Shown piece by piece: positions 463 through 27,374 of a DNA stretch of 64,000 nt (position 1 is its first letter; each line of letters begins with the position of its first letter). A program made the translations under genes and the position numbers. The stretch spans positions 558,001-622,000 of the forward strand of contig NC_081334.1 of NCBI RefSeq assembly GCF_022539665.2, in the 5' to 3' direction. Below the pieces are notes generated by a model, which saw only the letters and a program-made list of their open reading frames with translations, did no database searches and had not been told where the DNA came from. The DNA is from Daphnia carinata. Taxonomy: Eukaryota.

Positions 463-3400
463 ATGATGTGCAGTACTTTTGAACTGCTTTACAAAATGAT
501 TGTAAAGATTGTATTTGTATGCATAATTTGCGGCCTAACACACGCCTCTAATAATGGAAACAGTCTTGTAAGTTTATTTGAAATCCTTATTTTGTTATCG
601 TTAACCGAGACTTCCCCATGTTTTTAGACGGAAAGCCACAGTTTCTCAATTGATTACGCAAATAATCAGTTCGTCAAAGATGGAAAACCCTTTCGATATG
701 TTTCTGGAGCCATGCACTATTTTCGTGTTCCAGTCCATTATTGGCCTGATCGGATGAAAAAAATGAGGGCTGCTGGATTGAATGCATTGGAAACGTATGG
801 CTTAATAGCATTAATGTTTCTAGTTTGTCAACAATATGAACTCTGTTTATTACTATTTGCCTACTTGTTTCCTGTTTAGGTATGTGGAATGGGTGTCACA
901 TGAACCACAACCAGGGTCATATGTGTTTGAGGGGAATTTAGATATTGAATCCTATTTCCGTTTGGCTCAGAATTTCAACCTTAGTGTAATCCTGAGGCCA
1001 GGCCCATTCATTGATGCTGAAAGAGATATGGTAACATGAATTTATGGTTATAAATTTGTAGAATGCTCTTTATTATTTACAGAACACATTATTTGTTTTT
1101 ACCAGGGGGGTTTACCATTCTGGCTCATGACAGTTGATCCTTCCATCAAGTTGCGCACAATGGATAAAAGTAAGAAATTTTTTTTTTTAAAAGTAAAGTA
1201 GCAATAAAGTTTCATCAGATATAGTGAATTGTCAGCCTAGAAAGAAATTCAGGTAACTTTGTACAGTGAAATTTGACTGTAGGTATTGTTACATAATTTA
1301 AGCATACTACCCTCCCCCTTTACTTCTGGTTGCTTCTCTATTCCTTCTTTAATCTATACCAGTTGCTTCAGTTATTGAAAAAAAAAAATAGAAATTGAGT
1401 TTAGAGTATGGCAACAAACCTGCGATCTGTTAGTCTGTTAATGAAAGAAGTGAAGAATCCACGAAATTTTTAACGTAGAGTACCAATATCACCTAAGGTA
1501 GACAGAACCGGCGGTTCTTGTAGAAACATTAATGAAAGCCACATTTATAATACTTTAATTTGATCAGGTTGTAGGCCACTAGCTAACTGTGAACTGGTTT
1601 CTATTGAAAATGGTATGGGACACCAGTTCTATACCATTGCATTAAACGTAATTTCCAGGGATCCTTACGTCATGGTAGGTTGGGCAATTTGAAAAATCTG
1701 CGAATGCATACAGCAAAGATAATAGAACGCTCGATGCAATTAATTAATACTTTGCCAACTAATACTAATAAGTTGTTTCTTGATAGAACACAGCATGAAC
1801 ATTTATTCTTATTTTTAATTAAAAACAGGTTACGTGTCCCGCGTTGAGAAATGGTTTTCTGTGCTACTTCCTAGAATCAAACCTTACCTCTATAACAATG
1901 GAGGTCCAATTATCACTGTTCAAGTAGAAAACGAATATGGTAGGTGCGTGTCTTTTATTTACGTTTCCAGAACTACGTCACATAGTTTTTCAGGTAGCTA
2001 TTCGGCATGCGACAGAGACTACACAAATTGGCTGAGAGATCTAATTCGAAAACATCTCGGCAATAATGTTGTGCTCTTCTCTACTGATGGCGATGGCGAT
2101 GGTTATCTCCAGTGTGGAAAAATACCCGGAGTTTATGCAACTGTAGATTTTGGCGCTGGTATGTTTTGACGTACAGATTAGTTTTTCATTGCCGACGCTA
2201 TTTATTTCTTTATAATTATTCAAAGGTGCAAATGCACAGGAAGCTTTTAAGCCGCAACGTCATTTTGAGCTTGGCGGCCCAAGAGTGAATTCTGAGTTCT
2301 ACCCTGGATGGTTAGATTTGTGGGGAGAACCACATTCGAAGGTTGACAAACAAGATGTGGCTAAAACGCTGGACGATATGCTTGCGCTGAATGCATCAGT
2401 TTCAATGTACATGTTTCACGGAGGAACCTCGTTCGGATTTACCTCAGGTGCGGAAAAAAATTATGTGCTTTCATAAATTTCAGAATCTTTACGTGCCTTT
2501 ACTAAAGGTGCATTACCTTCCAATACCTACACACCTTGCATTACGTCGTACGACTATGATGCGCCATTAAGCGAAGCTGGAGATCCAACTGAAAAATATT
2601 TTAGCATAAGGGATGTAATATCCAAGGTAAATTTGAAAACTATCCATGCGAAAAGTGATTAACACTAACTGTTTCCTGTTCATTACAGTACTTGCCTTTA
2701 CCAGATTTTCCGTCTCCTGTTCCGAATGCTAAGGCAGCCTATGGATTTGTCCATTTGCATTACGTAGCAAATCTGTGGGATGTGTTGTCCACTCCAATCG
2801 CTGGTCCTTTTGTGCGTTCTGTTCATCCGTTGACGTTTGAAGCTTTAGGGCAAGCTAACGGCTACGTCTTATACTGCACAAAGTTGCACGGCCATTTTCC
2901 TGATCCAGCTCTTTTGGAAATGAAGGGCTTAGCCGATCGGGCTTATATCTATATTGACATGGTAAAGACAAAAAGAAATGTTTATTTTCATATTTTTTGT
3001 TAGCTAACGTTCAGGATATAGGAATTTGTCGCATTGTTATCTCGAAGCGGATCACTCTTTTCAATTCCAGTCCAAGCCGCTGACAGCCAGAAACTCTGCA
3101 TTTTGGTAGAAAATCAAGGAAGAATCGCCTACGGTTCCGGTATAAAAGACTTCAAGGTTAGTGTCTTCGTTTTTGTTCCGTGATTAAATGACACATTCTT
3201 ATATAAACATTGGTCATTTTGAAAAAGGGACTAACAAGCCAAGTGACAATTAATGGTCAAGTCCTGGTGGACTGGACTCATCACCCTTTGCCTTTTAACG
3301 AGACGGCCAGATTGGATTGGCTGAACAAGCTTGAAAAAAAAAAGGCTTTCCCAGCCAAAGGAACTTTGTCTTTGTTCAGGGGATCGTTTGCTATCCGACG

Positions 3401-3769
3401 CAATGAATCCGAGATGGCCGATACTTATCTTAGTTTATCAGGATGGCATAAGGTTGGTTGAAATAGGCTTTTAGGTTTAATAAAACTTCTTCTTTAATTC
3501 TTAAAAACCAATAGGGCGTCGTATTCTTGAACGGCGTTAATCTTGGTCGTTACTGGCCGGTGCAAGGCCCACAAGTAACTCTCTATGTTCCAAAATACTT
3601 TCTACGAGCCTGGCCGTCGAAGAATCGTCTGATTATCCTAGAACAGGATTACTCACCTTGTAATGAACATGCACTGGAATGCATAGTCGAATTTGTCGCA
3701 AAACCAGTTCTAGATGGCGACACGCCCGCCAAGAAAAGCTCTATCAAACTTTTTAAGAAGCACGTTTAA
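463..3769 (+). CDS. GLB1: Lysosomal-type beta-galactosidase (GH35, GLB1-like), multi-exon, apparently intact
   Basis: Spliced by eye with GT-AG introns: signal-like N-terminus, [45 protein letters not shown], catalytic QVENEYG and [38 protein letters not shown]; stop TAA at 3767-3769. Start could be ATG 463, 466 or 496. Confidence 0.95.
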
Positions 3770-5407
3770 AAAGAACGCAATTCCTTCGGTCAAAGTCATT
3801 GCTGAAATCAACGTTCCGGTTTGGGCATTTGCGAGTTCAACCAAAAATTTACTTCTGCCCTGGATTAAAGTCAAAAGTTTTTGATGCGTAAAGATAATGT
3901 AAAAATTTAAAAACTAACTTTCTTATCGTAGTGCTGTTCCTGGATTTATCCCATATCGTAAACTTTTAAAGATTTTGTTTAAACGTGAAAAATGCAATGC
4001 ACAGTTGAAAATTTCACTGTTTTCAAACCGGTTTTTGATTTCCGACGAATAATACTGATTGGAGTAGGAGATCCAGGAAATCCGTCAAGTTTGAGCCTTG
4101 GAGAAAAAAAAATGGTAAACAACAGAAAGTGATAAGGACACCCGCTAGGTTATGATTTCCGGTCGTCGTTACCCATGTTCGAGTCCCATTAACCGATACA
4201 ATCATATCCTTGTTACATTATGCATTTTCGTTGTCGCAGCTTCTTTTAAACGGCCAGCAATGGTTTCATCACAATTCATCCCTTTTTCTCTTTTTCATTC
4301 CTTTTTTTTGTAGAAAAATGATAAAAATTGGAAGAATGAAATTGATAGTAATAGAGAATGATAGAGTTTGGTAGAAAATGAGTGTAATAATCACAGGGTT
4401 CTTATTCACGAGATTCTGGTACTAAACGGTCTTATCTCTGCAAAAGGAATCTTTCGAGTTGAATCATTCAATGTGAAATCACAGCCAACATCGCTCTCCC
4501 CCGCAGGGCTCTCTGTATGCGAGTTTTTTTCTTTTCTTTCGCACCTGACTGTTCGTTGCTGCCTTCGAGAATGGATGACTAGATACTGTACAAGAGAAAT
4601 AAAATTAGTAGATAGACATTTTGCCTTCTTTTTGTGTATTTCCGGCCTCCGTTATTCTGATCTCGAAAAACCTTTGAACGCAACAGGGATCACCCAGGCC
4701 GCATGCCTGCTCCCGATTCATTGAAAAAGAAAAACCACATTATCTCATGATTCTACGCTATCCTTAACGTTTCCGCGTATGGCCCGACGGAACTAGAGAA
4801 ATGGATGTGATGAGCCGGAAAAGTGAAAACGTCTAGCAATACCATCTACCAATTATAGAAGCTAAACAGATAGACAGTAGCCAACATGTGTATCTGTCAG
4901 TAAAATGAGGGGGAAAGAATGGACAATGAGCAATAGACTTTTTGGTGTGCATCAATAGATGATCAAGAAAGAAGCTTTCTCCCCGGACCCAATACCCTGT
5001 TCTTCGATGAACGATCGACCAAATTGTAATTAGCAGGCGCCGGTTTTTTTTCGGAAAGAGATGTAAATGAAAACCAGCAAACTTTGGAAATGAAGCAAAA
5101 AATAATATGAACGAAGTTGGATAGAACTTATACCAAAAAGTGAGGCTCAGCTTAGAGAAAACCACAAACTGTTACACCCACCACTATAGGAACCCAAAAG
5201 ATCCACATAGTGTTTGTTGGTGGTGTCATGTAGCTTCCATTGGCACACACATTATTTTAGGGAAATGAAACTAAATTGAAAGTGGTTGCTGTATATGTGA
5301 ACTATAAGATTTACAAAGTGTCATAGATTAACGTGAAGAGAGAGCTGTAAACTGCTGTCGGCAAGGTATTTATTGGCAAAAAGTTTTAGTGGAATTTGCT
5401 TTTCTTG

Positions 5408-8400
5408 TTATTGTACCTTCCACATGTTTCTATTCCAGGTGGGGAAAACATCGGTAAAGCTTTCTGGCTCCTGACTTTGATGAATGATGAATATGAGTGT
5501 TGAGTCAACACTACGCTGAGATGGCTCGGTCTTCAAATATTCCTATACACCAGAAAATGAATTACAGCAAATGGTGGAATAATAGTGACATGTAGAGGTC
5601 TACTTGGGCCAACTTGAAACCAGCTGCCCGCTCTTCATCTGTAGAATGCAGCCCAATCCAAACGTAGATTTCATGACCTGAGTCCAGTACCATCACATCA
5701 TCATCAACCAAATCCTGTTGTGAAATTAAAATTTACATGGATTTATCAAGTGAGTTTTAAAATGAAAGCTAATGTCTCTTTTGATACTTCTTGCTTGAAG
5801 GGTCTGACTTCTTCCACTCTTAGACGTCCGGCTATGTTCAAGATGCAGTGGAAGAGACGGGCCTTCAACACTGGCGGTGGGTCAGGCTGAACAGTGGTGT
5901 ATGGACCTTTACCACCCAATGCATCCCAAAACTCTTGCGACTCTTCGCCTTCATTGACGGGTACCAATTCACGACCAGGGGACACAAGATTAGCAACCTC
6001 TACTCCAAGGCTCTTTTCATCATCAGACGATGCCTGTGAATCAGATGGAAATAAATGCCAAAACTATTGCAGATGTAATGAAACGAGACAAGCGTACAAC
6101 GCCATTCCATAGGTAAGTTTTTGATGGGGTTTCCAGAACAAATACGTCATCCGAATTGAGTGAAGAAGCGGTCTCGGCTACCTGTACAGCGCGCATATCA
6201 TCAGCTCCATAACCCCGAACCTATTTATTAAGAGACGCGGATAGAATAATTCGATATGGGCGATATGACCGGTGAAACTTACGTGGAACAGACGGGTTCC
6301 ATCCACGTCGTAACTGTCGTAATCGTGAACGTTGCGGAATGCACTGGCTTGGCCACCGGTGAAGATGATCATCTTACCTTTAAACATTTTAATGAAATGA
6401 CGGGGCTCGTTGCCTTGAGTGAGGCGAACCTGTACTGCCTTGCCGGCCAGTTCGTTATCTAATCTCATAGCATGAATTGCAGATGCAGCCTTTTCGTCTA
6501 GGCTGCTGTCATTACCCTGAATTCAGTAGAAAATGGGCATTTGACTGTTTTGTTTATTTTGCTGTCCCTTTATAATATTTACCTGCCAGAAGTAGATGAT
6601 GTAGCGAATTTTTGCACCAATATTGGAAGTGTATTTGATAACATAGGAGTCACCTCCAAAGAACATTCCGTGAGCAGAGGGATCAACTGGTACCAGTTCG
6701 AAATTCTCGACGCGATAAATTTCCTTTTGTCCTGAACCATCATCGGGTGAAAATCCTGGAGCTGCTCCGCCCTGTTTAAGTAACAGGCGAAGTTTGTCTC
6801 TATGCAGGGAGCTAACGGTGAACTCTAAAGCAGGAAAACAAATAGGTAATTCTTTTATAAATTTGTAAAATCCTAGAAACTAATTGTCTTACCTGCGATG
6901 CGATCATTTTTAGTGGGTACAGGGACAGGGAATTGGGATGTTGTATTTTCTTCTCTCCAGCTGGCAAAGTATTGCTTAAAGATCGTGGGTTCTCCGCCGT
7001 CCACGACGCGGTTAACCTGAAGTCACTTTGTTTCAAATAAATTCTTTGATTTCTAATTGGCAGATTTTTCACCTTAGTCCAAATTGGATAACCCTTTTCG
7101 GTCAAGAACCTTTGAGCCACGTTCATCGCTTCAAGTTTCTCAGCTTTAGTACACCCTCGGCCGATCCAAACAAAGAGTCCCGATCCTCCAGTATCGAGAA
7201 TAAAGCAATCCTATTAGAGAAGAAAAAATTTTCTCGATAAAACAATTCTTCTTTATCATTTAGGAGTTACAGTGCGAAAATGTGGATGCAATTTTGCGTA
7301 AAGCAGAACTTTACCGAATTTTTGCTTTCATCGTTCTTCCGGAATCAAACACTAAATTGTTGGCGTGTTAATGAAAGCAAAAAGCGTAACCAAAAAAATC
7401 AAACGGTTAATGCGTTTTGTGTGAGAAGCAAATTTCATGTAAAGTGAAAGTGTAAGTAGACAAGGCAAAAAATTATATTCAACAAATAATATGAGAAAAG
7501 TGATTGATAGCTAACCTCTCTTTTCAACATAGATTGCTGCAATGTTTTTTGCTTAATTTCTTCAATCACTAGTTGACCGCTAGCATCGCTCACGCGGAAC
7601 AATATCGCCGACGACTAGAATATTAAACAAGGATTACAAGGGATTTGCCTTGTGTATAAATACTAATTGAATGCCTGCCTGTTGTTGCTGTTCAAATAAG
7701 ATATCATCGTCCTCGTTAGACCCTTCCGGAACATCCATCGGCGAACCACTACCTAACTCTTTGAAAAACGTGGAAATATCACCCGCGCCACTGAATTCAT
7801 CTGCATTAGACAATTATGGTTATTAAAAATTGTGATTTTGAGTCTGTACACAAAGGCAACGGACCGAGAATAACAATCCTGGCTTTGCCAGCATGGTCCT
7901 GGTCACGGACTTGATTGGCAGCTTGAACAGCTTTCAAGCGTTCTATCTTTTTGCTGCCATTGCCCATATACACGTAAACGACCTTTCCAGCGTCCAAAAC
8001 GAAGCAGTCGCCTTTGTTCATGGAGGACACATCAAGGGGAACCTGCAGGAATTTCGATTCATTTCCTGTTTGAATATTCAACTGATACTGTCAGTGCAAA
8101 ATTTACCTGCCGGATGCGAACGTTTCGCTTGCCTTTAACGTGCAAAAGTTTCTTCTCCACTTGATCGGGATCAACGTGCTTAAAACCGCTGGTAACTCCG
8201 CCGTCAAGGTATCGTACACCTTCATCGTGATATTTTAGCGAATTATTACATTTTACAGTACTTTAAAAGGAAAAAGATCAGCAGTCAGTTACCTCCAGGG
8301 AAATTTGCCAGAAACATCGACGATTCATATTCTTGAACTTCGCGATATTGAACAGGAACTCCACCAAGATGGTCGTCTAACTCAACAGCGAAGATTGCCG

Positions 8401-10215
8401 CTGCACCCATTTCATCCTATATTCAATCACATTTTAACGCTTCAGTTGAAACGATCAGACAGTGACAGATCGAGATGATATTGCTAACGCTGAAAGAGGT
8501 TTGTTGTTATAAATGAAACCGATTATCTTTCTATCAAAGGGAACCAGTGGCAGATTCCATGGATTTTCGAAAACAAACCTGAGAAGTGTCTTTCCCGAGC
8601 CAAAAGTGAATGTCACGTTTCAGTTTGTTACCGGACAGGCGGGTCTATAAAAATAATAAACATTAATATTATTTCCCTGCAAACGGTGTGCTTCCAAAAA
8701 TACTCACACTCAGAACAATGTAAGAATCTCCACTGTAGAATTTCCCATACGACTTTTTGTCGTATGGAACTGGTGCGAAATTCTGTAAAGACATGTGGAT
8801 CGAAATAAGAAATTTCAACATATACTTGTCACGTTGATCACCAAATGTATATAACATTGATCTAATAAGTATTTCCATTTCGAAAGGAACGTGACTACGC
8901 TTTTTAGATACGTCGGCCAAGTCGAGCGCTTAAGTATTGCCAACGAATTTGGTAATGTAGAATTGACTTGGGAACAGTTTTGCCTTAGAAGAATCTTTTT
9001 TTGAGCTACTATAAGTTAGTTGGTTAGAATAATAAGAAAAATGCGGTTGGTGCAATACTTCAACTTTTTTAAAATCACCTTTGTGGTTTATGATCGACAT
9101 TTTCCGAGAGGGAAAATGTATACATCGCCTTGGCTGATTTTTTGTGACTTCATCGATGTAATGTGTTTTTTAGCAACGTAATTTCGCTGAAATGCTTCAA
9201 AAGTAGTTTATTTGCTCCAGTTTATCTGGTCGGGTACTTCCAGCATGAGTCAACAACTGTCTGAAAATTATTCAGACGATGCAGAAATATCAATGGCGTT
9301 TATGCTTCACGGCCAAAACTTGCATCATCCTGATACCGTGCTCTAAAACATTCAGTTGGGAATGAAGAAATCGGATGCATCGTGTGGTGATTCTTTACCA
9401 ATTGATGTTCCTTCTCCTGCCAGGGACTACGTGACAAAGAACTTACAGCTACTTACCTGCGACCATGTACAGGAAGAAACCGTTCGTTCGATAGTAGTGT
9501 CATCGGAAAAAAATAACCTCCTGCGAGGTGGGGTTTTGCTTAATGTTAACCAAGTTATCGTTTGGTACTCCCAGTTGCCAGTTTCTAAAACAGCCGTATA
9601 ATCGTTAGTGAATGTAACAGCTTGACGACAACGGCATTGCGTCCTTGTTTCGAAAAACATGCATCAGTTGTGCATGAAGCCCTATTCGCAAAGCGTGCGA
9701 GGGTTAAACAATTCTACCACTGCCTCAAGGTGTGCCAGACTTGCGCTCAATGTACCGTAACCTTTACACCTGTGTGCTCAACAGCCCTTGTTTCCTATGG
9801 AAACAGAATCGCTGCGGATTATTTTTGAATTCATAAAATCAAGTTTGTGCGAATATTATAGGATAAAGTTTGAAAATAATAGCAGTAGCATTCCGATAAT
9901 TTAGCAGGAGAATCGTTTAAATGACAATGAACATTTTTCCATTGGTACATTTTCTCGCAACCGGCACACAAAGATAGGCACGTACATTTTTCAAAAGAAT
10001 TTTGGAAACCTGGATCTGATAATGCAAAGGCGTGATATGCAAGCACCGCAAATTTTACGAATTTCCATGTCAACAATCGATGTCCCTGTTTTGTTATTTG
10101 TTTAATGTAAAAATTTCTTTGAAGTCAAGGATTGTTTTGCTATTCTTACCTCAATCCGCCAAATTTCCAGGCCAGGTTGTTTACCCACATCAGCACCAAA
10201 TGATGATTCCGGCAT
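5408..10215 (-). CDS. Gel: Gelsolin (six domains, 16 coding exons), reading frame apparently intact
   Basis: Exon 1 (10215-10150) reads [22 protein letters not shown], then [121 protein letters not shown] and [16 protein letters not shown]. The last AAG|GTACAA might instead splice to a further short exon. Confidence 0.93.
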
Positions 10216-11392
10216 TTTAAATGCGTTTAATAGAGTAGTTTTAAATTGCTTGAACGTTAACGTTGCCGAAAGCTAATAAATCGTGTTCGAATGGGACCTG
10301 CCTCGATAGAAACTGAAAAGCGTTAAGTGGTAACGACGTACGTAAGCCACGCAGGTGCCAAATTAGGAATGAGCGAATTCAAGTACGGAATGAGATATGA
10401 GCTAAGGTTTCTAACTGAATGCCACCTGCTGAGGATGAAAAGCTAAAAAGCTTATCACCTTCGAGAGGTCAAGATTTTACCACTTCGTCCACATTCCGAA
10501 CAAACTAAGCAAACATATACGATAATATACTAACAGAAAAATCATAAAAATAATGCTGACATTGTTATCTTGTTGCCGTAGCGATGGCTTAGCGATAATT
10601 CCCCGGGTTTGGACTTTTTGATAGTGCGATAAGGCACTGCCCCTTTAAAAATTCCAGCAGTTGGGGAGACATATAGGAAAGAGTTTTAAAATTTGAAATT
10701 GAACCTCTCGTCTTAGAAACAGAACAATATAGTGCTTAAAAATGACGACTGTCAAACCTCCGCAAAAAATTGTTTTATTCCTGGTCGCTTGATAAGATTG
10801 ATAAGAGATATTGCAACGTAAGTATAAAAATGTTCTGTCCCGACCACTGCCAGCAAACAAGGTTTGGTAATTTTTTCATAACATATGTGAATAAATAATG
10901 AATATTGCTTTTCTTATTAACAGCGGAACCTTTAGTTGCAACTATACTCCACCTCCAACTGTTGGTTCCGGAGCAATGAGTCCGGTCATGCATACTTTTA
11001 CGGAGAATTGTTATCCTGACGATGCCAGTAATCAAAGAGTAGTAATTTTTTTAGGTTACCTGTATCATTACTGAAAATTGCTTTTGTTTGTTAACAATGG
11101 ACCCTGCATACACATAACCAATGGTTTACCACCATTACCTCTACAGAACTGTATGAAAAGATAAGACAATTTTGGTAGGTGGTTTAACGCAGTGCATTTT
11201 CAGACTACAGCCAAAGTGTGATACACACAAACAACATTCATACACACACACACACACGTCATTCACAATAAGAATTTTGACTAGCTCATTCATACCAAAG
11301 GTACACACATTTGCACATACACATTCATACAGACATGCACACAATTTTGGGAATGCACGCTTCTACTAATTTAGGGTAATCAAAGGGGAAAT

Positions 11393-11995
11393 TCATATCC
11401 TTAAACGTTTCCCACCAGGAAGAGTACCTGGAACATCTTCTTCCCGTTTGCGCTTGGTCTTCAAATCATTTGGCCTTTCTTCGGATGGTAACTGGCGCAT
11501 CAAGTCTTTGGAATTTCTATCCTTGGATCGTTTCTCGACAGGGAGAGTTGCCGGGCCATCCTCTGTCCTCTTACGCTTAGCCGCTAGTTTGGCCGGTACC
11601 ACCGGACGGTCGACAGGTACCTGTGAAAGAAAAGGAGCTTTAGTCTTAAGCAAATTTTTGTCGTTACTTAGGTTTTGCGCAGCCTTGGCCTCAGCCAATA
11701 GTCTTTGGTGAGTCCGCTTCCGCTTAGACTCCAACTCGTTTTTCTCTTCCAGTGATTGTATTCTTGACACACGAACGGGTGGCTTAGGAACTATTTCTCC
11801 GCGTCTTTCCGCCACAGTTTGAAAATGTGGTCTATGGTTGTACAGCTTACACCTAGCCAACAAACTATCAAGCAATTTCCCAGGTGGTAACTGGAGCTTA
11901 GGATCAGGTTCTGGTTTCGGCAGCACAGGTATCCATATCCCTTGCAGCCGATTTAAATCAACCGACACTGCAAGACACGGTCGAAAGGTTGCCAT
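11393..11995 (-). CDS. Intronless 200-aa basic orphan protein with two bipartite NLS-like C-terminal repeats, copy 1
   Basis: Clean ATG-to-stop ORF with context AAGAAAATGG. Contains KRKRTEDGPATLPVEKRSK and KRKREEDVPGTLPGGKRLRI. No upstream AUG in the leader between the ribozyme P10 strand and this start. Confidence 0.65.
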   Translation of the reverse strand: MATFRPCLAVSVDLNRLQGIWIPVLPKPEPDPKLQLPPGKLLDSLLARCKLYNHRPHFQTVAERRGEIVPKPPVRVSRIQSLEEKNELESKRKRTHQRLLAEAKAAQNLSNDKNLLKTKAPFLSQVPVDRPVVPAKLAAKRKRTEDGPATLPVEKRSKDRNSKDLMRQLPSEERPNDLKTKRKREEDVPGTLPGGKRLRI

Positions 11996-12133
11996 TTTCT
12001 TGGTAGCTTGTGAATAGGTAATTTAGAATGTGAGTTTGAGTATGGGAAGTAGGAGAGGTCTGCCTAGCTATTGGTTAAATAGTTCAGCAATTAAACTTTG
12101 CTACTTTTCAAATTCAGATAGACGATTGTAGGT

Positions 12134-12381
12134 AATGCATTCCGCATGGCGCGCAGGCCACACGCGACTGTTCATCCTTGAGAAGGCCAATAAGCCCTTG
12201 CCCGTGCAGTCTGTACACCATCCGGCGACTTTAATTTAAATTTGCTCATAGTCCGCCTTGGCTCGGCTCTCCCGCCACTCGCTTCCCCGTCAATGGGGGG
12301 TGGGATGGCCTGCGTGAGCAAGCAGGCCACCATTTGGGCAATTTACACTCAAGAACGCATTGCAGACCAGGCAAAGCCTGG
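12134..12381 (-). ncRNA. Candidate lariat-capping (GIR1/LC) group I-like ribozyme, copy 1
   Basis: Hand-folded on the minus strand. P10 AAUGC(12361-57)/GCAUU(12138-34); G12356.U12174 wobble; P15 UUCUUGAG(12355-48)/CUCAAGGA(12182-75); P3 UUGCCC(12341-36)/GGGCAA(12203-198); P7 C-A-GACUG(12213-07)/CAGUCG(12170-65); P9 8-bp stem 12164-12143 directly followed by omega-G 12142 and trinucleotide AAU. Confidence 0.8.
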
Positions 12382-12562
12382 GTTGGGCATGCTGCAGCCA
12401 GTCTCACCTGAAGCGCACAGGTTCGTCTTGAGACTAGCCCCATGCCGCAGCATTAATGCTGCAGCCTAGGCCCATACCTTGGGGAAAAAAAATAGTTTTT
12501 TAATAATTTATCATGGGAATTTAGTCTATTTAAAAAGTACGGCTAATACTTCCCGTAAGATG

Positions 12563-12773
12563 GGCGGCAATCGCGCTTCTTCCCGCTTGATGTCTTCGGA
12601 AATCGCCACCGAAGCACTAGATGGCGGTATCGGCGGCAATCGTGCTTCTTCCCGCTTGATGTCTTCGGATATCGCCGCTACGGCACTAGATGGGGGTATC
12701 GGCGGCAACCGTGCTTCTTCCCGCTTGATGTCTTCGACTATCGCCGTCACAGCACTAGATGGGGGTATCGGCG
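12563..12773. repeat. 69-bp tandem repeat x3, each unit with a CACTAGATGG(C/G)G CTCF-like motif, copy 1
   Basis: Units start at 12563, 12632 and 12701, with a partial fourth at 12770. Confidence 0.9.
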
Positions 12774-12929
12774 ACTTCGGTCCTCCTAATATAGTAAAAG
12801 CAGTCGTGTAGTTACGATAACATCTTGGAAACTCCGTTTTTTGGCCACCAGGTGGCACCCTTCTAGTGAACTACATATTTGTCTGCTATTGTTTTCTGCT
12901 CATTTTCAATACATTATCAAGTATATTTT

Positions 12930-15325
12930 AGTTGCTTCAGTTATTGTAAATAATAAGTAGAAAGCGAATTAGCATAAGGCAACAAGCTTGCGATCTGTTA
13001 GTCTGTTAATGAAAGAAGTGAAATCGAAATTGTTTAACGAAAGAGTACCAATTTCATCCAAGGTAGACAGACCCGGTAGCTCTTGTTGAAACGTTAATGA
13101 AAAGCCATAATTATAATATTTTAATTTGATCGGGTTGTAGGCAACTAACTAACTGTGAACTGGTTGCAACTGAAAATGGTATCTGGAACCAGTTCGATAC
13201 GATTACAGGAAACATAATTTCCATGGACCTTTCTGTCAGGGTAGGTTGGGCAATTTGCAGAATCTGCCAATGCATACAGCAAATATAATAGAAAGCTGGA
13301 TGTGGTTAATTAATCGTTTGTTATCCAATACTAATAATTTGTTTTATTGGCAGGACATAGCATGAACATTTATCATTGTTTTTAATTAAAACAGCTTATG
13401 TGGCCCACGTCGAAAAATGGTTTTCTGTGCTGCTTCCTAGTTCCTAGAAACAAATTTTACCTCTATAACAATGGAGGCCCACTTATCACTGTTCACGTAG
13501 AAAACGAATATGGTACGTGCGTATCTATTCATTTACCTTTCCAGAATTATATAACATAGTTTTACGGGTAGCAGGTGTGTAGTCTCTGTCGGCATGCGAC
13601 AGAGACTACTCTTCTTACTGTATTTAGTGTTGTGCTCTTCTTTACTGACAGAGATGGAGATGGTTATCTCCAGTGTGAAAAAATGCCTGGAGTTTATGCA
13701 ACTGTAGATTTTGGTGCTAGTATGTTTTGACGTACTGATTAGTTTTCCATTGTCCACGCTATTGATTTCTATATATTATTCAAAGGCGGAAATGCAGGAG
13801 AAGCTTTTAAGTCACAACGTCATTTTGAAGTTAGTACCCCTAGATTGAATTTTGAGTTCTACGCAGAATGGTTAGATTTGTGAGAGAATTCAGTCGAAAT
13901 TTTACGATCAAGATGTCGCTAAAACGCTGGACGATATGCTTGCGCTGAATGCATCATTTTCAATGTCCATGTCTCACGGAGGAACTTCGTTTGGACTTAC
14001 CTCAGGTATAGATAAATTTATGCACTTTCATAAATTCGAGAATCTTAATGGGCGTTTACTAAAGGTGCATTGCCACCCAATACTTACAAACCTTGCATCA
14101 CGTCGTATGACTGTAATGCCCCGTTAAACGAAGCAGGAGATCCAAAGGAAAAATATTTTAGCAAAGGGATGTAATCTCCAAGGTGCTTTCGAAAACTAAC
14201 CGTGCAAAATGTGATTGAAACTAACTGTTTCCTGTTTATTACAGTACTTTCCTTTACCGTATTTTCCGTCTCCTGTTCCGATTCCCAAGGCAGCCTATGG
14301 ATTTGTCCATTTGCATTACGTAACAAATCTGTGGGATTTATTGACAACTCCAACCGCCGGTCCTTTTGTGCATTCTGTTTGTCCGTTTACGTTTGAAGCT
14401 TTAGGACAAACTAACGGCTACGTTTTATACTACACAAAGTTGCACGGCCATTTTTCTGATCCAGCTCTTTTGGAAATGAAGGGCTTAGCCGATCGGGCTT
14501 ATATCTATATTGACATGGTAAAGACAAAATAAAAATGTGTTTTTATTTTCATTTTTCCTTTTAGTTATTGTTCAGGATGTCGGAATTTGTCGCATTGTTA
14601 TCTCGAAGCGGATCGCTCTTTTCAATTCCAGTCCTAGCCGCTGACAACCAGAAACATTGCATGTTGGAAGAAAATTAAGGAAGAATTGCCTACGGCTGCG
14701 GAATAAAAGATTCCAAGGTTAGAGTCTTCCTTTGTCTTCCGTGAATAAATGACAGATTCTTAATATCAACATCGGTCATTTTGAAAAGAGACTAACAAGC
14801 CAAGTGACAATAATGGCCAAATCGTGGTGGGCTGGACTCATCACCCTTTTTCTTTTAACGAGGCGACCAGATTGGATTGGCTGAACAAGCATGAAAAAAA
14901 GGCTTTCTGAGCCAAAGAAAGGTTGCCTTTGTTCAGGGAATCGTTTGCTGTTCGACATAGCGAACCCGACATAGCTGATACTTATTCGTAATTTATTAGG
15001 ATGGCACAATGCTGGTTGAAATGGGCTGGTAGGTTTAAAAAAAACTTCTTTTAAAACACTTAAAAATCTATAGGGCGTCGCATCGTGAACGGCGTTATCT
15101 TGATCGTTACTGGCCTGTCCAAGGCCCCTAAGTAACTTTCTATGCTCCAAAATACTTTCTACGAGCTTGACGTCGAAGAATCGTCTGATTATCCTAGAAC
15201 AGGATCGCCCACCTTGTAATGAAAATGCTCTAGACTGCATAGTCGAATTTGTCTCAAATCCAGTTTTAGATGGCGACACGCCCGCCAAGAAAAGCTCTAT
15301 CAAGCTTTTTAAGAAGCGCGTTTAA
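12930..15325 (+). pseudogene. Beta-galactosidase pseudogene, 5'-truncated, copy 1
   Basis: Homologous to 1361-3769. Exons 1-4 are missing; 7-bp duplication TTCCTAG at 13434-13447; TGG>TGA at 13881; CAA>TAA at 14676; exon deletion near 13610. Confidence 0.93.
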
Positions 15326-18300
15326 AAAGAAAACACTTTCGTCGGTCAAAGTCATTGCCGAAGTTAACGTTCCGTTTTGGGCATTTACTAGTTCAACCAG
15401 AAATTCATTGCTGCCCTGGATTGGCAAAGCCTAAGGTTTGTTATACTAAAAGAACATGCAAACGATAATTTATTATGTAAACAAAAATTTGTTTATTAAA
15501 GAAAATGAAAAAACATAACACTATAACATTCTTGGGTCGTGCTGTTCCGGGATTTATCCCATATTGTAAACATTTAATGATGTTTAAACGTGAAAAATGC
15601 AATGTACAGTTGGAAATTTCACTGCCATATGCCTGGTTGTTTTCAAACCGGTTTTTAATTTTCGACGAATAATACTGATTGAAGTAGGAGATCCAGGAAA
15701 TCCAATCAAGTTTGACCTTTGGAAAAAAAAAACAAAAAATAAATTAATTAATTAATAAAAAAAAAAGTGGATAACGCCACTCGGTAGGTTATGATTTACG
15801 GTCGTGATTACCCATGTTCGAGTCCCATTAAACGATACAATCTTCTCCTTGTTACCTTATGCATTTTCCTTGTCCCAGCTTCTTTTAAATGGCCAGCAAT
15901 GATTTTATCGCGATTCATCCCTTTTTTTTCTCTTTTTCATTTCGTTTTTTTTTTTTTGTAGAAATATTTTTTGAGCAGGTGTTTGATTCAAAAGAAGAAG
16001 GCGGAAAGAATAGAAAGACCCTGAGGACACAATGTTATGACTTTCCCTTGGAATGTTTATCCAAAACCCGCTCCAGAAAGACATAAGATAGAAACGGTGT
16101 TGACCTTGTCGAAAGTTTCTCCCTCCACCGAACGTATCCATTAAGCCCCTCCGCCCTGTTCACTGGAAACCGACAGGGAGCCTTTTTTTTTTTAAATTTA
16201 TTTATTTTAAGTTTATCTTTGCCTACAAAATGAAAGGATTTGAAAAGTTCTTTTTACTGAATCGTTAACGGTCAAGATGTCAGCATGATTTGAGATGCAT
16301 TGGTGCAACAAAGCCAACAAATCCTAAAAAAAAAAGAGATGACTAATAACAAAAAGAGGTAATGACCAAATTTCATGAGAATGCGTTACATTGTGCTCTA
16401 TTCTTTATAGGAAACCGAGCCTTACGCAATAACATTTGGGGCCTAAACCAACAATGAATGGGACGCGACAGGTGGCGCATATCTTCTTACGTACCAACAA
16501 CTGAAGACCTTCCGTCGCAGAATAACCAAACAAAACAACACGCGTAATAACCACAGTATTTTTATTCACGAGATTCTGGTACTAAACGGTCTTATCTTTG
16601 CAAAAGGAATCCCTTTCGAGTTGAATCATTCAATGCGAAAGTACAGCCAACATCGCTCTCTCCCGCAGGGCTCTCTGTATGCGAGTTTTTTTTTCTTTTC
16701 TCTCGCACCTGACTGTCCGTTGCTGCCTTCAAGAACCTTGCTCAAGCCAACCGACTTCTACCTACGTGCAGTCAGTCAGTCGGTGCCGCTGCAACGCTCC
16801 AGTCGCATTCTTACGGACCGCGCTGCGCAGGTGTCTTTTGGAGTGGCCCCCCTCTCTCTCTCTCTCTCTCTTCTTGCTTCATTGTCGTTGAAACATCTAC
16901 TTCTCTTGACTGGATTCAAGACAACGGATGACATAACGCAATAATTAAGGATTATTTTTCGCCGTTCGAAACAGGTGAGATGATTTCAATTCGATTTGTC
17001 TTGTATATTCGATTAGATAAGACATTCCTTTGTGCGTGCGGGAAAGAAATTCTTGGCCCAGGCACAACGCACTAGACGAGTGAGGTATTCACTTTCTATT
17101 CTTCCTAAAGCGGATGAATCAAGCTCGTTCTTCTTTCACCTCTTTGGTGCGATTCAAAAAAAAAAAAAAAAAGTAGGAGACAGAAACAGCAGGCAACACT
17201 TTCTCTCTTCCAATTTTTTTTTTTTTTTTACGTGTGGTTCTCTTCGCAACGAATTTTATTGGCCGGAGAGAGCAAAAAAAAGAAAAGGAAACGATTGAGG
17301 TGAAGGTTTGGGTTGTATCCAGCAGAGCAACTTTCCCCGGGTATTACTTTTTTTTTGGGGTTCGCCTGTGTGTGTGTCTGTGTGTACAGAGATTTGAACG
17401 CTCCAACTTGTTGGCACCATCGTGATAACCAAATGGCAAAGTTAGAACCTTCTTTTCATGCTCTGCTAAAACTATTTTTCTAATGCTTCGATCGTTAAGT
17501 TATTAAACTCAGGAGAAATGAGAAAAGTGATGCATTTTTTTTTTGTTTTATGGACGGCCAGTAAGAGCCTTACGGGCCTACGGGGAAATTGCCTGGAAGG
17601 GCGGAAGCCATCTTCCCTATCTTTCTTTTATGTGGTCCCCCCAACTTATTTTTTTTTTATTTGTCTTCCTTTTTCATGTACTCGGTGTGTTAAGCGTCCA
17701 GTTACGTGAAGCGACGCCTCAGGCAGTGTTAAATAATATTTTATCCCCCAAGCCGCACGCTTGCTCCCGATTCCCCACCATTGAAAAAGAAAAAAAAACC
17801 CGCATTATCTCATGCTGATTGCCTTTCGAAATTTGAGAACGAATAATTGCTGCTCTGTAAAATCTCCATAGACTCTTTATCAAAGGCTAAAGGTGTTGTG
17901 ATTCTTTGACAGGTTGATGTCATAGTGGTGTGTCACCAGCAAATGAAAAGGTTCCTTTGTTTTCTTTCTTTTTCCTTCTTTACCTTGAGGCTTATGATGT
18001 TTGTTGTGCGTGAGAGGTGCGGCTGTTGCGTCTAGCTCCAACCGGATGATGATGATAACTCTTGGCTCGACTGTTGAAGGACAGGGCGGGGCATCGGTGA
18101 TGACGCCTACGCCAAGTCGCGAAAATTTAGGGCGGAGGTGATGACAGTGTTTTTTTTTTCGTGTTCGCTATGATACGTCATTGTTAATTGAGTGAATTTT
18201 TGCAGTGTCAGCCGCATTGCTCATATCTCAAGTATGGCTTTAAAAGGATCAAGGTATTTTTATGTCGACATTTCACTTCTGGATTTTTCGATTAAAGTCT

Positions 18301-18367
18301 GACCGTCCGACATTGAGTGATTTTGGTTTTTCTGCAAAACAAGAAGAAAGAAAAGCGAAAGGAACTT

Positions 18368-21300
18368 GATGCGACCATTTTTAGTGGGTACAGGGACAGG
18401 GAATTGGGATATTGTATTTTCTTCTCTCCAGCTGGCAAAGTATTGCTTAAAGATCGTGGGTTCTCCGCCGTCCACGACGCGGTTAACCTGAAGTCACTTT
18501 GTTTCAAATAAATTCTTTGATTTCTAATTGGCAGATTTTTCACCTTAGTCCAAATTGGATAACCCTTTTCGGTCAAGAACCTTTGAGCCACGTTCATCGC
18601 TTCAAGTTTCTCAGCTTTAGTACACCCTCGGCCGATCCAAACAAAGAGTCCCGATCCTCCAGTATCGAGAATAAAGCAATCCTATTAGAGAAGAAAAAAT
18701 TTTCTCGATAAAACAATTCTTCTTTATCATTTAGGAGTTACTGTGCGAAAATGTGGATGCAATTTTGCATAAAACAGAACTTTACCGAATTTTCGCTTTC
18801 ATCGTTCTTCCGAAATCAAACACTAAATTGTTGGCGTGTTAATGAAAGCAAAAAGCGTAACCAAAAAAATCAGGCGGTTAATGCGTTTCGCGTGAGAAGC
18901 TAATTTCATGTGAAGTGAAAGTGTAAGTAGACAAGGCAAAAAATTATATTCAACACATAATATGGGAAAAGTGACTGATAACTAACCTCTCTTTTCAACA
19001 TAGATTACTGCAATGGTTTTTGCTTAATTTCCTCAATCACTAGTTGACCGCTAGCATCGCTCACGCGGAACAATATCGCTGACGACTAGAATATTAAACA
19101 AGGATTACGAGGGATTTGCCTCGGTGTATCAATACTAATTGAATGCCTGCCTGTTGTTGCTGTTCAAATAAGATATCATCATCCTCGTTAGACCCTTCCG
19201 GACCATCCATCGGCGAACCACTACCTAACTGTTTGAAAAACGTGGTAATATCACCCGCGCTACTAAATTCATCTGCATTAGACAAATATGGTTATTAAAA
19301 TTGTGATTTTGAATCTGTACGCAAAGGCAACGGACCGAGAATAACAATCCTGGCTTTGCCAGCATGGTCCTGGTCACGGACTTGATTGGCAGCTTGAATA
19401 GCCTTCAAGCGTTCTACCTTTTTGCTGCCATTGCCCATGTACACGTAAACGACCTTTCCAGCGTCCAAAACGAAGCAGTCACCTTTGTTCATTGAGGACA
19501 CATCAAGGGGAACCTGCAGGAATTTCGATTCATTTCCTGTTTGAATATTCAACGGATACTGCCAGTGCAAAGTTTACCTGTCGGACGCGAACGTTTCGTT
19601 TGCCTTTCACTTGCAAAAGTTTCTTCTCCACTTGATCGGGATCAACGTGCTTAAAACCGCTGGTAACTCCGCCGTCAAGGTATCGTACACCTTCATCGTG
19701 ATATTTTAACGAATTATTACATTTCACAGCACTTTAAAAGGAAAAAGATCAGCAGTCAGTTACCCCCAGGGAAATTTGCCAGAAACATCGACGATTCATA
19801 TTCGTGAACTTCTCGATGTTGAACAGGAACTCCACCAAGATGATCGTCTAACTCAACAGCGAAAATTGCCGCTGCACCCATTTCATCATACATTCAATCA
19901 CATTTTAACGCTTCAGTTGAAACGATCAGACAGTGACAGATCGAGATGGTATTGCTAACGCTGAAAGAGGTTTATTGCTATAAATAATACCGATTATCTT
20001 TCTATCAAAGGGAACCAGTGGCAGATCCCGCGGATTTTCAAAAACAAACCTGAGAAGTGTCTTTCCCGAGCCAAAAGTGAATGTCACGTTTCAGTTTGTT
20101 ACCGGACAGGCGGGTCTATAAGAATAATTATCATTAATATTATTTCCTGGAAACGCTGTGCTTCCAAAAATACTCACGCTCAGAACAATGTAAGAATCTC
20201 CACTGTAGAATTTCCCATACGACTTTTTGTCGTATGGAACTGGTGCGAAATTCTGTAAAGACATGTGGATCGAAATTAGAAATTTCAACATATACTTGTC
20301 ACGTTGATCACCAAATGTATATTAACATTGTTCTAATAAGTATTTCCATTACGAAAGTAGCGGGACTACGCTTTTTAGATACCTCGGCCAAGTCGAGTGC
20401 TTCAGTATTACAAACGAATTTGGTACTGTACAATTGATTTGGTAACAGTTTTGCCGTTAGAAGAATCTCTTTTTGTGCTACTATAAGTTAGTTGGTTAGC
20501 ATAATAAGAAAAACGCAGTTGGTGCAATACTTCAACTTTTTAAAATCACCTTTGTGGTTTATGACCGACATTTTCCGAGAGGAAAAATGTATACATCGCC
20601 TTGGCTGATTTTTGTGACTTCATCGATGTAACCGTTTTTTTAGCAACGTGATTTCGCTGAAATGCTTCAAAAGTAGTTTATTTGCTCCAGTTGATCTGGT
20701 CGGGTGCTTCCAGCATGAGTCAACAACTGTCTGGAAATTATTCAGACGATGCAGAAATATCAATGGCGTTTATGCTTCACGGCCAAAACTTGCATCATCC
20801 TGATACCGTGCTCTAAAACATTCAGTTGGGAATGAAGAAATCGGATGCATCGTGTGGTGACTCTTTACCAATTGATCTTCCTTCTCCTGCCAGGGGCTAC
20901 GCGACAAAGAACTTACAGCTACTTACCTGCGACCATGTACAGGAAAGAACCGTTCGTCGATAGTAGTGCCATCGGAAAAAGAATAACCTCCTGCGAGATG
21001 GGGTTTTGCTTAATGTTAACCAAGTTATCGTTTGGTACTCCCAGTTGCCAGTTTCTAAAACAGCCGTATAATCGTTAGTGAATGTAACAGCTTGACGACA
21101 ACGGCATTGCGTCCTTGTTTCGAAAAACATGCATCAGTTGTGCATGATGCCCTATTCGCAAAGCGTGTGAGGGTTAAACAAGTCTGCCGTGGCCATCTAC
21201 CACTGTCTCAAGGTGTGCCAGACTTGCGCTCACTGTACCGTAACCTGTACACCTGTGTGCTCAACAGCCCATGTTTCCTTTTTAAACAGAATCGCTGCGG

Positions 21301-21831
21301 GTCATTTTTGAATTCATAAATTCAAGTTTGTGCGAATATGATGGGATAACGTTAGAAAATAATAACAGTAGCATTCCGATAATTTAGCAGGGGAATCGTT
21401 TAAATGGCAATGAACGTTTTTCCAATGATGATAGGCACGTACATTTTTCAAACGTTTTTCCACTGAAATGTTATTGCTAGAAAGAGTAGCTAATCGTGTA
21501 ACGTTTTTTACAGCACGTTCACTTTTGAAACTTTTTCAGTTTCGCGCCAGTACGAACGTTTCTCTAAAATTATGAATTTTCTTCAGTTAGTGACTGTGTT
21601 TGTGTACGCGGTCATTGGAAACCTGAATCTGATAATGCAAAGGCGTGATATGAAAGCACCGCAAATTTTACGTATTTCCATGTCAACAATTGATGTCCCT
21701 GTTTGTTATTTCTAGGTTTAATTTTAAAATTTCTTTGAAGTCAGGGCTTGTTTTGCTATTCCTACCTTAATCCGCCAAATTTCCAGGCCAGGTTGTTTAC
21801 CCACATCAGCACCAAATGATGATTCCGGCAT
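18368..21831 (-). pseudogene. Truncated gelsolin (domains G1-G3 only), probably a pseudogene
   Basis: Exons 1-10 are present and the gene is cut at the duplication junction in the G3-G4 linker. The exon-4 acceptor is AG>AT (19888 vs 8417). The frame runs on to a stop at 18260. Confidence 0.8.
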
Positions 21832-23744: not shown

Positions 23745-23992
23745 AATGCATTCCGCATGGCGCGCAGGCCACACGCGACTGTTCATCCTTGAGAAGGCCA
23801 ATAAGCCCTTGCCCGTGCAGTCTGTACACCATCCGGCGACTTTAATTTAAATTTGCTCATAGTCCGCCTTGGCTCGGCTCTCCCGCCACTCGCTTCCCCG
23901 TCAATGGGGGGTGGGATGGCCTGCGTGAGCAAGCAGGCCACCATTTGGGCAATTTACACTCAAGAACGCATTGCAGACCAGGCAAAGCCTGG
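23745..23992 (-). ncRNA. Candidate lariat-capping (GIR1/LC) ribozyme, copy 2
   Basis: Same sequence as copy 1 at an offset of +11611; omega-G at 23753. Confidence 0.8.

Positions 23993-27342: not shown

Positions 27343-27374
<32 letters not shown>

What the first reader, a model, noticed from the sequence alone, without database searches (positions are those of the whole stretch)
12134..12381. Candidate lariat-capping (GIR1/LC) ribozyme in an animal genome
Seen in sequence (minus strand): a GC-rich island whose pairings appear in LC-ribozyme order. They are P2.1-like CCAGGC/GCCUGG; P10 AAUGC/GCAUU; a G.U wobble (12356/12174) on P15 UUCUUGAG/CUCAAGGA; P3 UUGCCC/GGGCAA; J3/4 AAAU; P4-P5 GGUGGCCUGC/GCAGGCCAUC; P7 G-binding site C(A)GACUG/CAGUCG; P8; J15/7 GAA; and P9 CGUGUGGC/GCCAUGCG. 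P9 is immediately followed by omega-G (12142), three nucleotides AAU (12141-12139) and the P10 3' strand. G.U pairs in the main stems work on this strand only. Established knowledge: the P3/P7/P15 double pseudoknot with P9-omegaG-NNU-P10 defines the LC ribozymes of Didymium, Naegleria and Allovahlkampfia twin-ribozyme rDNA introns, which cap the downstream mRNA with a 3-nt 2',5' lariat. ACAGACUGCACGG (12214-12202) and AUGAACAGUCG (12175-12165) match the Didymium iridis core as I recall it (not checked). Inference: cleavage after 12142 with branch U at 12139. Differences from the known ribozyme: AAU instead of CAU, a ~80-nt P6 expansion, no obvious J5/4 bulge and no GNRA in L9.
Basis: partly seen in the sequence, partly recalled or inferred. 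Interest (0 to 1): 0.97.

Follow-up and report, generated by a model that had tools for sequence, protein, structure and literature searches.

The report
Lariat-capping ribozyme in water fleas, viruses
This genome, likely a water flea's, carries in front of a small gene family the RNA fold of the rare lariat-capping ribozyme known only from amoebae and a slime mould, which likely cuts its own transcript and seals the message's front end in a three-base loop, and the same fold sits just before a protein-coding gene in dozens of RNA-virus sequences.

Summary
The feature is real. Every stem listed is present, twice (12134-12361 and 23745-23972, minus strand). The 13- and 11-nt core motifs equal the Didymium sequence printed in PMC4436661. 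Rfam GIR1 misses the window. A motif scan, however, found a large family in RNA-virus contigs (110 of 121 loci carry the extended core), typically between a polymerase and a capsid gene. Six such loci hit Rfam GIR1 (39-64 bits, below threshold). A model built from viral members alone hits the window (53 bits, E 3e-9). The family keeps a 4-nt G-N-N-U spacer between P9 and P10 without my requiring it. The ribozyme precedes a 146-nt leader and a 200-aa ORF whose named homologues are all Daphnia proteins, and the cassette is multicopy in related species. Best reading: an active lariat-capping ribozyme, probably virus-derived, serving a Daphnia gene family. No cleavage was measured, and the canonical J5/4 is missing. 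Ten literature searches and three scan look-ups found no earlier report.

The parts
12134..12361 (-). LC/GIR1-type ribozyme core, copy 1 (P10 to P10)
23745..23972 (-). identical ribozyme core, copy 2 (tandem segmental duplicate, +11,611)
12357..12361 (-). P10 5' strand (pairs with 12138-12134)
12348..12356 (-). P15 5' strand, first pair G12356.U12174 (pairs with 12182-12174; 9 bp)
   Evidence: both-side change in L167
12336..12341 (-). P3 5' strand (pairs with 12203-12198), followed by J3/4 AAA
12263..12332 (-). split P4: U12332-A12263 stacked on CGG/CCG with a GAGAG loop, interrupted by hairpin A (12331-12304) and hairpin B (12303-12275; loop CAUUGAC, 3' bulge AAGCGA)
12217..12262 (-). P6 and P6a; J6/7 GUA at 12216-12214
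12165..12213 (-). P7 G-binding site (12213-12207 with 12170-12165), P3 3' strand, P8 (12197-12184), P15 3' strand, J15/7 GAA
12143..12164 (-). P9, 8 bp, joined directly to P7
   Evidence: two both-side changes in L167
12139..12142 (-). omega-G 12142 and predicted lariat AAU; predicted cut between 12142 and 12141, predicted branch U12139
   Evidence: sequence; family G-N-N-U bias; chemistry inferred from PMC2219692
12367..12381 (-). P2.1-like hairpin next to P10; longer but kept in L167
12388..12480 (-). conserved 5' hairpin domain, candidate regulatory region
11996..12138 (-). G-poor leader left on the predicted 3' product (10% G over 12141-11996; no AUG after 12140 until the ORF)
   Evidence: covered at >=80% identity in runs X2, X8, X11
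11393..11995 (-). intronless 200-aa K/R/P-rich ORF, member of a Daphnia multigene family, no Pfam match; copy 2 at 23004-23606
11156..11392 (-). GT-rich 3' region shared with a paralogue in run X1; approximate 3' end of the cassette
12480..12773 (-). upstream region: conserved to about 12600 in related runs, overlapping 3.1 copies of a 69-nt repeat (12563-12773); candidate promoter region
10317..12929 (.). segment that carries the cassette and replaces about 1.25 kb of unrelated intergenic DNA found in the older paralogue (window 100-1360) and in runs X2 and X8

Best explanation
This is a lariat-capping (GIR1-type) ribozyme fold standing alone in the 5' region of a small multicopy gene family of a likely Daphnia genome, and it likely cuts the transcript after G12142 and caps the downstream message with a three-base 2',5' lariat. 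Shown: the full P10/P15/P3/P7/P8/P9 topology, two copies, a 146-nt leader, the ORF, conservation in related genomes and kinship to a viral family. Inferred steps: (1) a minus-strand transcript starts upstream of about 12480; (2) G12142 docks in P7 and the 2'-OH of U12139 attacks the bond after it; (3) this removes a 57%-GC leader holding 10 upstream AUGs, and buries an eleventh (12140) in the lariat, so the first free AUG is the ORF start at 11995; (4) the capped message is long-lived and is translated weakly, or through its G-poor leader without an m7G cap. The ribozyme probably came from the 5' leader of a toti-like dsRNA virus and then spread by DNA-level duplication.
For: Core motifs identical to Didymium. 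All LC junction features of PMC2219692 except J5/4 are present. The viral-only model scores 53 bits against a next-best 14.5 in the window. Five of six chance-looking motif matches tested give no hit and the sixth 23 bits. The same model recovers a genuine twin-ribozyme intron (L173: LSU rRNA, group I intron, GIR1 and His-Cys endonuclease). Family covariation: 27 of 39 pairs change on both sides, score 0.542 against 0.179 shuffled and at most 0.139 slid. The spacer is 4 nt in 43 of 59 non-redundant members, with first base G in 40 of 43 and last base U in 37 of 43, neither required. Window versus L167: of 78 pairs, 54 same, 7 one-side, 6 both-side, 3 broken, 8 not covered. The ribozyme region is about 87-98% identical in related runs while the ORF is 31-43% identical to its named homologues. 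In run X2 the conserved leader runs into codons for SFKDLIKG, the start of the named family proteins. The split-P4 signature occurs in 12 of 165 motif matches: three virus lineages and L167. Two of these lineages encode RdRP_4. The core tree groups window, L167, L073 (99) and L003 (98).
Against: No cleavage or branching was measured. There is no Rfam GIR1 hit for the window or L167. With the 19 search-pattern letters masked, a sequence profile no longer finds the window, so the sequence-level match rests on the motifs I searched with. The canonical J5/4 bulge is absent, and its deletion abolishes activity in Didymium. The 26 covariation sequences were chosen because they paired well. With P9 capped at 4 bp the script preferred a 2-nt-slipped register for the window. 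Five of 22 listed variants at paired sites break a pair as single changes, so some copies may be decaying. Lariat-capped mRNA gave under 1% of control protein in yeast, which is awkward for a protein-coding gene. L013, the third split-P4 lineage, falls outside the tree clade, and bootstrap values on 112 columns are overconfident. No viral protein homology was found for the ORF.
Confidence: 0.62

Rival explanations
1. The ribozyme is active but cuts after G12142 mainly by hydrolysis, leaving an uncapped 5' end. It trims or destabilises the message instead of capping it.
For: The canonical J5/4 is missing. [quoted passage not shown] The first lariat base is A, not C.
Against: The G.U pair, the next U-A pair, the middle A and the branch U are all kept. 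U at the branch position is kept in 37 of 43 family members, which hydrolysis alone would not need. About ten viral members also lack P5 and J5/4.
Confidence: 0.15
2. The RNA is a catalytically silent relic of a virus-derived ribozyme, kept as a structured 5' UTR or simply carried along by recent duplications.
For: Some copies in run X8 break P3, P8 or P4 pairs, and one skips 216 nt. The cassette is absent at this site in the older paralogue and in runs X2 and X8. Lariat-capped mRNA translates poorly in yeast.
Against: No listed variant touches P7, J15/7, omega-G or the lariat triplet (tables show only the best-supported rows). L167 keeps the core at 82% identity with compensatory changes. The ribozyme is far better conserved than the ORF behind it.
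Confidence: 0.13
3. The cassette is a non-autonomous retro-mobile element whose ribozyme defines its 5' end by cutting it out of read-through transcripts, as 5' ribozymes do in R2-type retrotransposons (recalled, not checked here).
For: It is multicopy, with many distinct contigs per run (16 in X11 and 26 in X8 on 441 nt), present at some sites and absent at others, intronless, and has a GT-rich 3' end. L167 has a tRNA-like Pol III box just upstream.
Against: Copies keep about 450 nt upstream of the predicted cut, which a retro-copy of the cut product would lose. No poly(A) tail, target-site duplication or reverse transcriptase was seen. The co-inserted flank keeps a GT..AG intron that is spliced out in run X1, which points to DNA-level duplication.
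Confidence: 0.08
4. The stems are a chance resemblance in a GC-rich hairpin island.
For: No Rfam hit; folding z-score only -1.62; the masked profile fails.
Against: 0 of 78,566 anchored shuffles meet the descriptor; model E 3e-9; compensatory changes in L167; 24 core letters equal to Didymium.
Confidence: 0.02

Closest known systems
Didymium iridis lariat-capping ribozyme (DirLC/DiGIR1, intron Dir.S956-1; PMC2219692, sequence printed in PMC4436661)
   Same: Identical 13-nt J6/7-P7-P3 and 11-nt J15/7-P7 motifs; 9-bp P15 opening with G.U then U-A; GAA J15/7; P7 joined directly to P9; omega-G, three nucleotides ending in AU, P10; a hairpin at the P2.1 position; a coding sequence downstream.
   Different: Not inside a group I intron, rDNA or next to a homing endonuclease. 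P4 is split by a 57-nt two-hairpin insertion, with no canonical P5 or J5/4. It has P6a, an 8-bp P9 without a GNRA loop, AAU instead of CAU, and a 146-nt leader.
Naegleria and Allovahlkampfia LC ribozymes (Nae.S516, Asp.S516; PMC4167309; Rfam RF01807 GIR1)
   Same: P3/P15/P7 topology, P6 with an internal A-rich loop, cut site shortly upstream of a start codon.
   Different: No RF01807 hit for the window at E<=10. The protist start codon is about 10 nt from the branch point, here 144 nt. Their P2.1 is formed with the coding sequence; here it is a local hairpin.
Undescribed LC-like family in RNA-virus contigs found here (L001-L172), closest L073/L134 and L003/L170
   Same: Same core; same split P4 with hairpin-B loop and 3' bulge; position upstream of an ORF.
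   Different: The viral copies sit 300-390 nt from the contig end before a roughly 950-1000-aa ORF (toti-like) or between polymerase and capsid genes. The window copy is in a nuclear genome before an unrelated short ORF.
Group I self-splicing introns (Rfam RF00028)
   Same: P3-P7 pseudoknot and G-binding site, J3/4 and J6/7.
   Different: No P1 or 5' splice site, no J8/7 (replaced by P15 and J15/7), no exon to be joined, and no RF00028 hit.
5' self-cleaving ribozymes of R2-type retrotransposons and genomic HDV-like or hammerhead ribozymes in animals (recalled, no call)
   Same: A ribozyme that would set the 5' end of an animal RNA upstream of an ORF.
   Different: Different fold and chemistry: those leave a 5'-OH end, not a 2',5' lariat. 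No reverse transcriptase is encoded here.

Membership tests
LC/GIR1 ribozyme | P3-P7 pseudoknot with an omega-G binding site (second G-C pair of P7, bulged A, last A of J6/7) | tested here: met
   C12213-G12165, A12212 bulge, G12211-C12166, A12214; feature
LC/GIR1 ribozyme | 9-bp P15 beginning with G.U, then U-A, stacked on P10 | tested here: met
   9 of 9 pairs; a both-side change in L167
LC/GIR1 ribozyme | Short J15/7 in place of J8/7, and P7 joined to P9 without an intervening A | tested here: met
   GAA at 12173-12171 as in the Didymium sequence; G12165 followed directly by C12164
LC/GIR1 ribozyme | P9, omega-G, three nucleotides ending in the branch U, then P10 | tested here: met
   8-bp P9, G12142, AAU, 5-bp P10. 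A slipped register scored higher only when P9 was capped at 4 bp; L167 supports the 8-bp register.
LC/GIR1 ribozyme | A-containing J15/3 and two G-C pairs in P8 as its receptor | tested here: met
   J15/3 UGUAAA at 12347-12342; G12196-C12185 and G12195-C12186. The contact itself was not tested.
LC/GIR1 ribozyme | Asymmetric J5/4 bulge with the key A between P4 and P5 | tested here: not met
   No canonical P5 or J5/4. P4 is capped by GAGAG and carries a two-hairpin insertion with an AAGCGA bulge, either of which might substitute (inference).
LC/GIR1 ribozyme | Score at or above the Rfam RF01807 gathering threshold (100 bits) | tested here: not met
   No hit at E<=10. Viral relatives score 39-64 bits and a genuine twin-ribozyme intron 42.5 bits, also below threshold, so the threshold is narrow.
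LC/GIR1 ribozyme | Branching reaction giving a 3-nt 2',5' lariat | not testable with these tools
   Needs in vitro cleavage and primer extension
Twin-ribozyme intron | LC ribozyme plus homing endonuclease gene inside a splicing group I intron in rDNA | tested here: not met
   No rRNA or group I hit in the window; no Pfam match for the ORF
Group I self-splicing intron | P1 with 5' splice site, J8/7, RF00028 match | tested here: not met
   No RF00028 hit; P15 occupies the J8/7 segment
Retro-mobile element with a 5' ribozyme | Copies begin at the cleavage site and have a poly(A) or repeat tail and target-site duplication | tested here: inconclusive
   Copies extend about 450 nt upstream of the cut and no tail or duplication was seen, but no whole Daphnia genome could be searched
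Endogenous viral element | Flanking sequence homologous to viral proteins | tested here: not met
   10 family proteins gave no tblastn hit at E<=0.01 to any fetched locus; only the RNA fold is shared

The most novel reading that the evidence does not exclude
Lariat capping is not a curiosity of three protist rDNA introns but a widespread gene-expression device of RNA viruses. Positive-strand viruses of the tombus-like and noda-like kind would release a capped capsid message by self-cleavage between polymerase and capsid genes, and toti-like dsRNA viruses would cap their message from the 5' leader. Water fleas captured one such ribozyme from a toti-like virus and use it to make the first known animal mRNAs with a natural 2',5' lariat cap.
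Probability: 0.45. Interest if true: 0.97.

Novelty: new variant of a known kind. Interest (0 to 1): 0.91.

Why it matters
The LC ribozyme is a natural ribozyme family whose product is an mRNA cap. The papers read here place it only in rDNA twin-ribozyme introns of Didymium, Naegleria and Allovahlkampfia. A free-standing member in an animal nuclear gene family would make open questions testable in a tractable animal: how lariat-capped messages are translated or stored, and whether an m7G-independent cap can serve host genes. The viral family supplies dozens of natural variants for a ribozyme known from few sequences. It includes forms without P5 and J5/4, which challenge the current active-site model, and it suggests an unrecognised way for RNA viruses to make capped capsid messages. 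Compact new variants could also serve as RNA-stabilising tools.

Tried and rejected
Rfam scans of the region, the core and the whole window found no GIR1 or group I hit. Linkage of ribozyme and ORF in other species therefore rests on contig pieces. Searching viral records by handle failed because they are not held. The run search listed no RNA holder; small-share runs that I did not lay (17 of 24 rows) are not used. Contig depth cannot give copy number or expression. Weak hint only: contigs of guessed-RNA runs X19 and X21 end at 12135 and 12139, and summed depth in X1 is 19 at 12162, 5 at 12113-12128 and 24 at 12078. Runs X2, X8 and X11 continue across. But these ends lie 3-7 nt past the predicted cut, depths are 3-4, and paralogue branching ends other contigs at 12132 too. 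A sequence profile with the search motifs masked did not find the window. The ORF has no match in Pfam, no usable ESM Atlas hit, and only 3 representatives at E<=0.001. The first ORFs of the toti-like contigs have no solved relative. In prokaryote genomes the motif occurred twice: one is eukaryotic rDNA inside a bacterial assembly and one gave no model hit. The first full-length model was too slow to calibrate, so the model used omits P9 and P10. The upstream 23-aa repeat frame is not significantly similar to the ORF family (best E 0.09). ARAGORN found no tRNA in L167. The crystal-structure paper (PMC4040574) is not held. Three look-ups of earlier scan findings gave nothing relevant.

Full report
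1. Observation. I held those motifs fixed and shuffled the rest. None of 78,566 shuffles met the strict descriptor (P15 >=9, P3 >=6 followed by AA, P9 >=4, 4-nt spacer, P10 >=5), and 1 met a relaxed descriptor including G..U. Rfam gave no GIR1 or group I match, and the folding z-score was only -1.62.

2. A viral family. A stricter pattern found 45 loci in metagenomes. These sets are redundant: 119 were distinct, 94 parsed into the LC order, 21 failed my parser and 4 were truncated. Among loci L001-L080 with enough flank, 55 of 60 have an ORF of at least 150 aa starting within 200 nt downstream (median 39 nt), and 61 of 63 have an open frame of at least 200 aa ending upstream. Pfam named 11 of 33 tested upstream frames as viral RdRp and 15 of 39 downstream frames as capsid (S domain, VNN or A6); the rest had no match. 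Of 79 parsed members with P15 >=7 bp, 77 had joint P9/P10 pairing and 59 were non-redundant. With spacer length free from 0 to 8 and no base identity required, the spacer was 4 nt in 43 of 59, beginning with G in 40 of 43 and ending with U in 37 of 43. The window itself fell into a 6-nt register in that script because P9 was capped at 4 bp; uncapped it gives an 8-bp P9, G, AAU. On 26 well-parsed members, 27 of 39 pairs change on both sides (score 0.542; shuffled 0.179; slid at most 0.139), with the caveat that they were chosen for pairing. Six of 6 viral members scanned hit Rfam GIR1 at 39.5-64.3 bits, below the 100-bit threshold; L167 did not hit.

3. The window belongs to it. A covariance model from 20 members (no window, no L167, no toti-like member) hits both copies at 53 bits, E 3.3e-9, next best 14.5 bits. 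Of six motif matches that looked like chance, five gave no hit and one 23 bits. Across 93 sources it made 88 matches. As a positive control it recovered L173, which proved to be a twin-ribozyme intron in eukaryotic LSU rDNA with a His-Cys endonuclease gene. Against: an unmasked sequence profile finds the window (E 4e-11), but with the 19 pattern letters masked it does not. The independent support is therefore the pairing, not further sequence likeness.

4. Corrected anatomy. P6 is G12262/C12261 with G12218/U12217, extended by P6a. P4 is U12332-A12263 stacked on CGG/CCG with a GAGAG loop, and two hairpins (12331-12275) are inserted after its first base. This signature occurs in 12 of 165 motif matches, which reduce to three virus lineages (L003, L013, L073 types) and L167. 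Across these and the window, 6 of 11 predicted pairs show both-side changes. L170 and L171 are 7.1-7.2-kb two-ORF contigs with RdRP_4 (toti-like), and carry the ribozyme 375-390 nt from the end, before ORF1. The L073/L134 lineage has the same layout, but its polymerase was not in hand. A tree on 112 core columns of all 88 matches groups window, L167, L073 (99) and L003 (98) and leaves L013 elsewhere. It is midpoint-rooted and short, so viral origin and direction are inferred, not shown. The canonical J5/4, essential in Didymium, has no counterpart; about ten viral members lack it too.

5. Genomic setting. The predicted 3' product has a 146-nt leader with 10% G and no AUG after 12140, whereas 12490-12142 holds 10 AUGs. 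The ORF (11995-11393, 200 aa, K/R/P-rich) has 4 homologues at E<=0.01 among 386 candidates, all named Daphnia magna or D. sinensis proteins at 31-43% identity. Their clusters list 8 proteins, 4 per species. The organism is thus inferred to be a Daphnia; no genome is held. In laid runs of other organisms, 12020-12600 is covered by many distinct contigs at about 87-98% identity while most of the ORF is not. Single contigs of X2 and X8 join 10316 to about 12929-12987 through 1.24-1.34 kb of other sequence, so this site lacks the cassette there, as does the older paralogue in the window. In X2 the leader leads into codons for SFKDLIKG, like the starts of P0002 and P0004. L167 is 82% identical over 315 nt; of 78 pairs, 54 are the same, 7 change on one side, 6 on both, 3 break and 8 are uncovered. 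Of 37 variants listed within 12134-12381 (the tables show 40 of 271 and 40 of 83 rows), 15 are unpaired, 17 keep pairing and 5 break it as single changes. One of the five has its partner changed in the same run, and four are in X8. Random transitions would keep 55% of pairs against 77% seen, a modest excess. Run X1 shows three GT..AG joints and so behaves like RNA, although it is not on record as such; one of its contigs matches 11257-12076 without a difference. This suggests, but does not show, transcription of the ORF.

6. Mechanism. By the model of PMC2219692 (parts 1-3 of 6 read), omega-G binds P7 and the U three bases downstream attacks the bond after it. Mapped here, the cut is 12142/12141 and the branch U12139. 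The consequence would be exchange of a structured, AUG-rich 5' region for a lariat cap on a simple leader. In yeast such a message had a threefold longer half-life but gave under 1% of the protein (PMC5393178; abstract and part 1 of 2 of the discussion). The Daphnia message would therefore be stored, weakly translated, or dependent on its leader. I put lariat capping at 0.62, hydrolytic cutting at 0.15, a silent relic at 0.13, a retro-mobile element at 0.08 and chance at 0.02. In positive-strand viruses the cut would destroy the genome copy, so it must be partial or switched; this is untested.

7. Literature. PMC4167309 (parts 1-3 of 5 read) confines LC ribozymes to Didymium, Naegleria and Allovahlkampfia rDNA introns. 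The passages of a 2026 Didymium paper (PMC13182076) add no other host. Ten full-text searches (listings and abstract openings only) showed no report in viruses or animals. The library lacks most subscription journals, PMC4040574 is not held, and no supplements were read, so prior description cannot be excluded. Earlier scan findings had nothing on this.

8. Verdict. A real LC-type ribozyme fold in a new setting and with a new P4 architecture: a new variant of a known kind. It works like an LC ribozyme on all tested core features but J5/4, and it is not a twin-ribozyme intron. Interest 0.91.

Noticed in passing
L173:2163-624 (minus strand): A complete twin-ribozyme intron (group I hit 59 bits, GIR1 hit 42.5 bits, 257-aa His-Cys endonuclease ORF) in eukaryotic LARGE-subunit rDNA, inside a Nostoc assembly, so probably contamination. 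The papers read place twin-ribozyme introns only in small-subunit rDNA.
   Followed up: partly
L167:833-892: tRNA-like A-box and B-box sequence (motif recalled) ending about 45 nt upstream of the conserved hairpin domain in the 82%-identical relative; ARAGORN calls no tRNA. It could be a Pol III promoter or a SINE.
   Followed up: partly
L014, L031, L036, L046, L050, L063, L071, L072, L094, L001: About ten viral members have only an 11-14-nt P4 hairpin, with no P5 or J5/4 (13 segments of 16 nt or less among 59, three of them misparsed). They would be the smallest LC-like ribozymes.
   Followed up: partly
window 1-4983, 6897-18368, 18368-30134: Three tandem copies of a unit with a gelsolin-like gene on the minus strand and a divergent gene on the plus strand. 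The two young copies (93-97% identical) carry the cassette; the older one (82%) does not.
   Followed up: partly
window 10294-11192: Nearly identical to a contig of run X1 that lacks a plus-strand GT..AG intron (10862-10923) and continues into sequence not found in the window. It may be the duplicated 3' end of another gene lying tail to tail with the cassette.
   Followed up: partly
window 12563-12773 and 24174-24384: 3.1 copies of a 69-nt unit with an open minus-strand frame of 23-aa repeats, weakly like the ORF family (E 0.09, not significant). It contains CTCF-like and E2F-like words (motifs recalled, not tested).
   Followed up: partly
window 12140-12138 (minus): An AUG overlaps the predicted lariat and branch point and opens an 8-codon frame; branching would disable it.
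   Followed up: partly
window 33564-36617 and 48608-52942 (plus): Long GC-rich open frames (1017 aa with 36-aa repeats; 1444 aa) without Pfam match.
   Followed up: no
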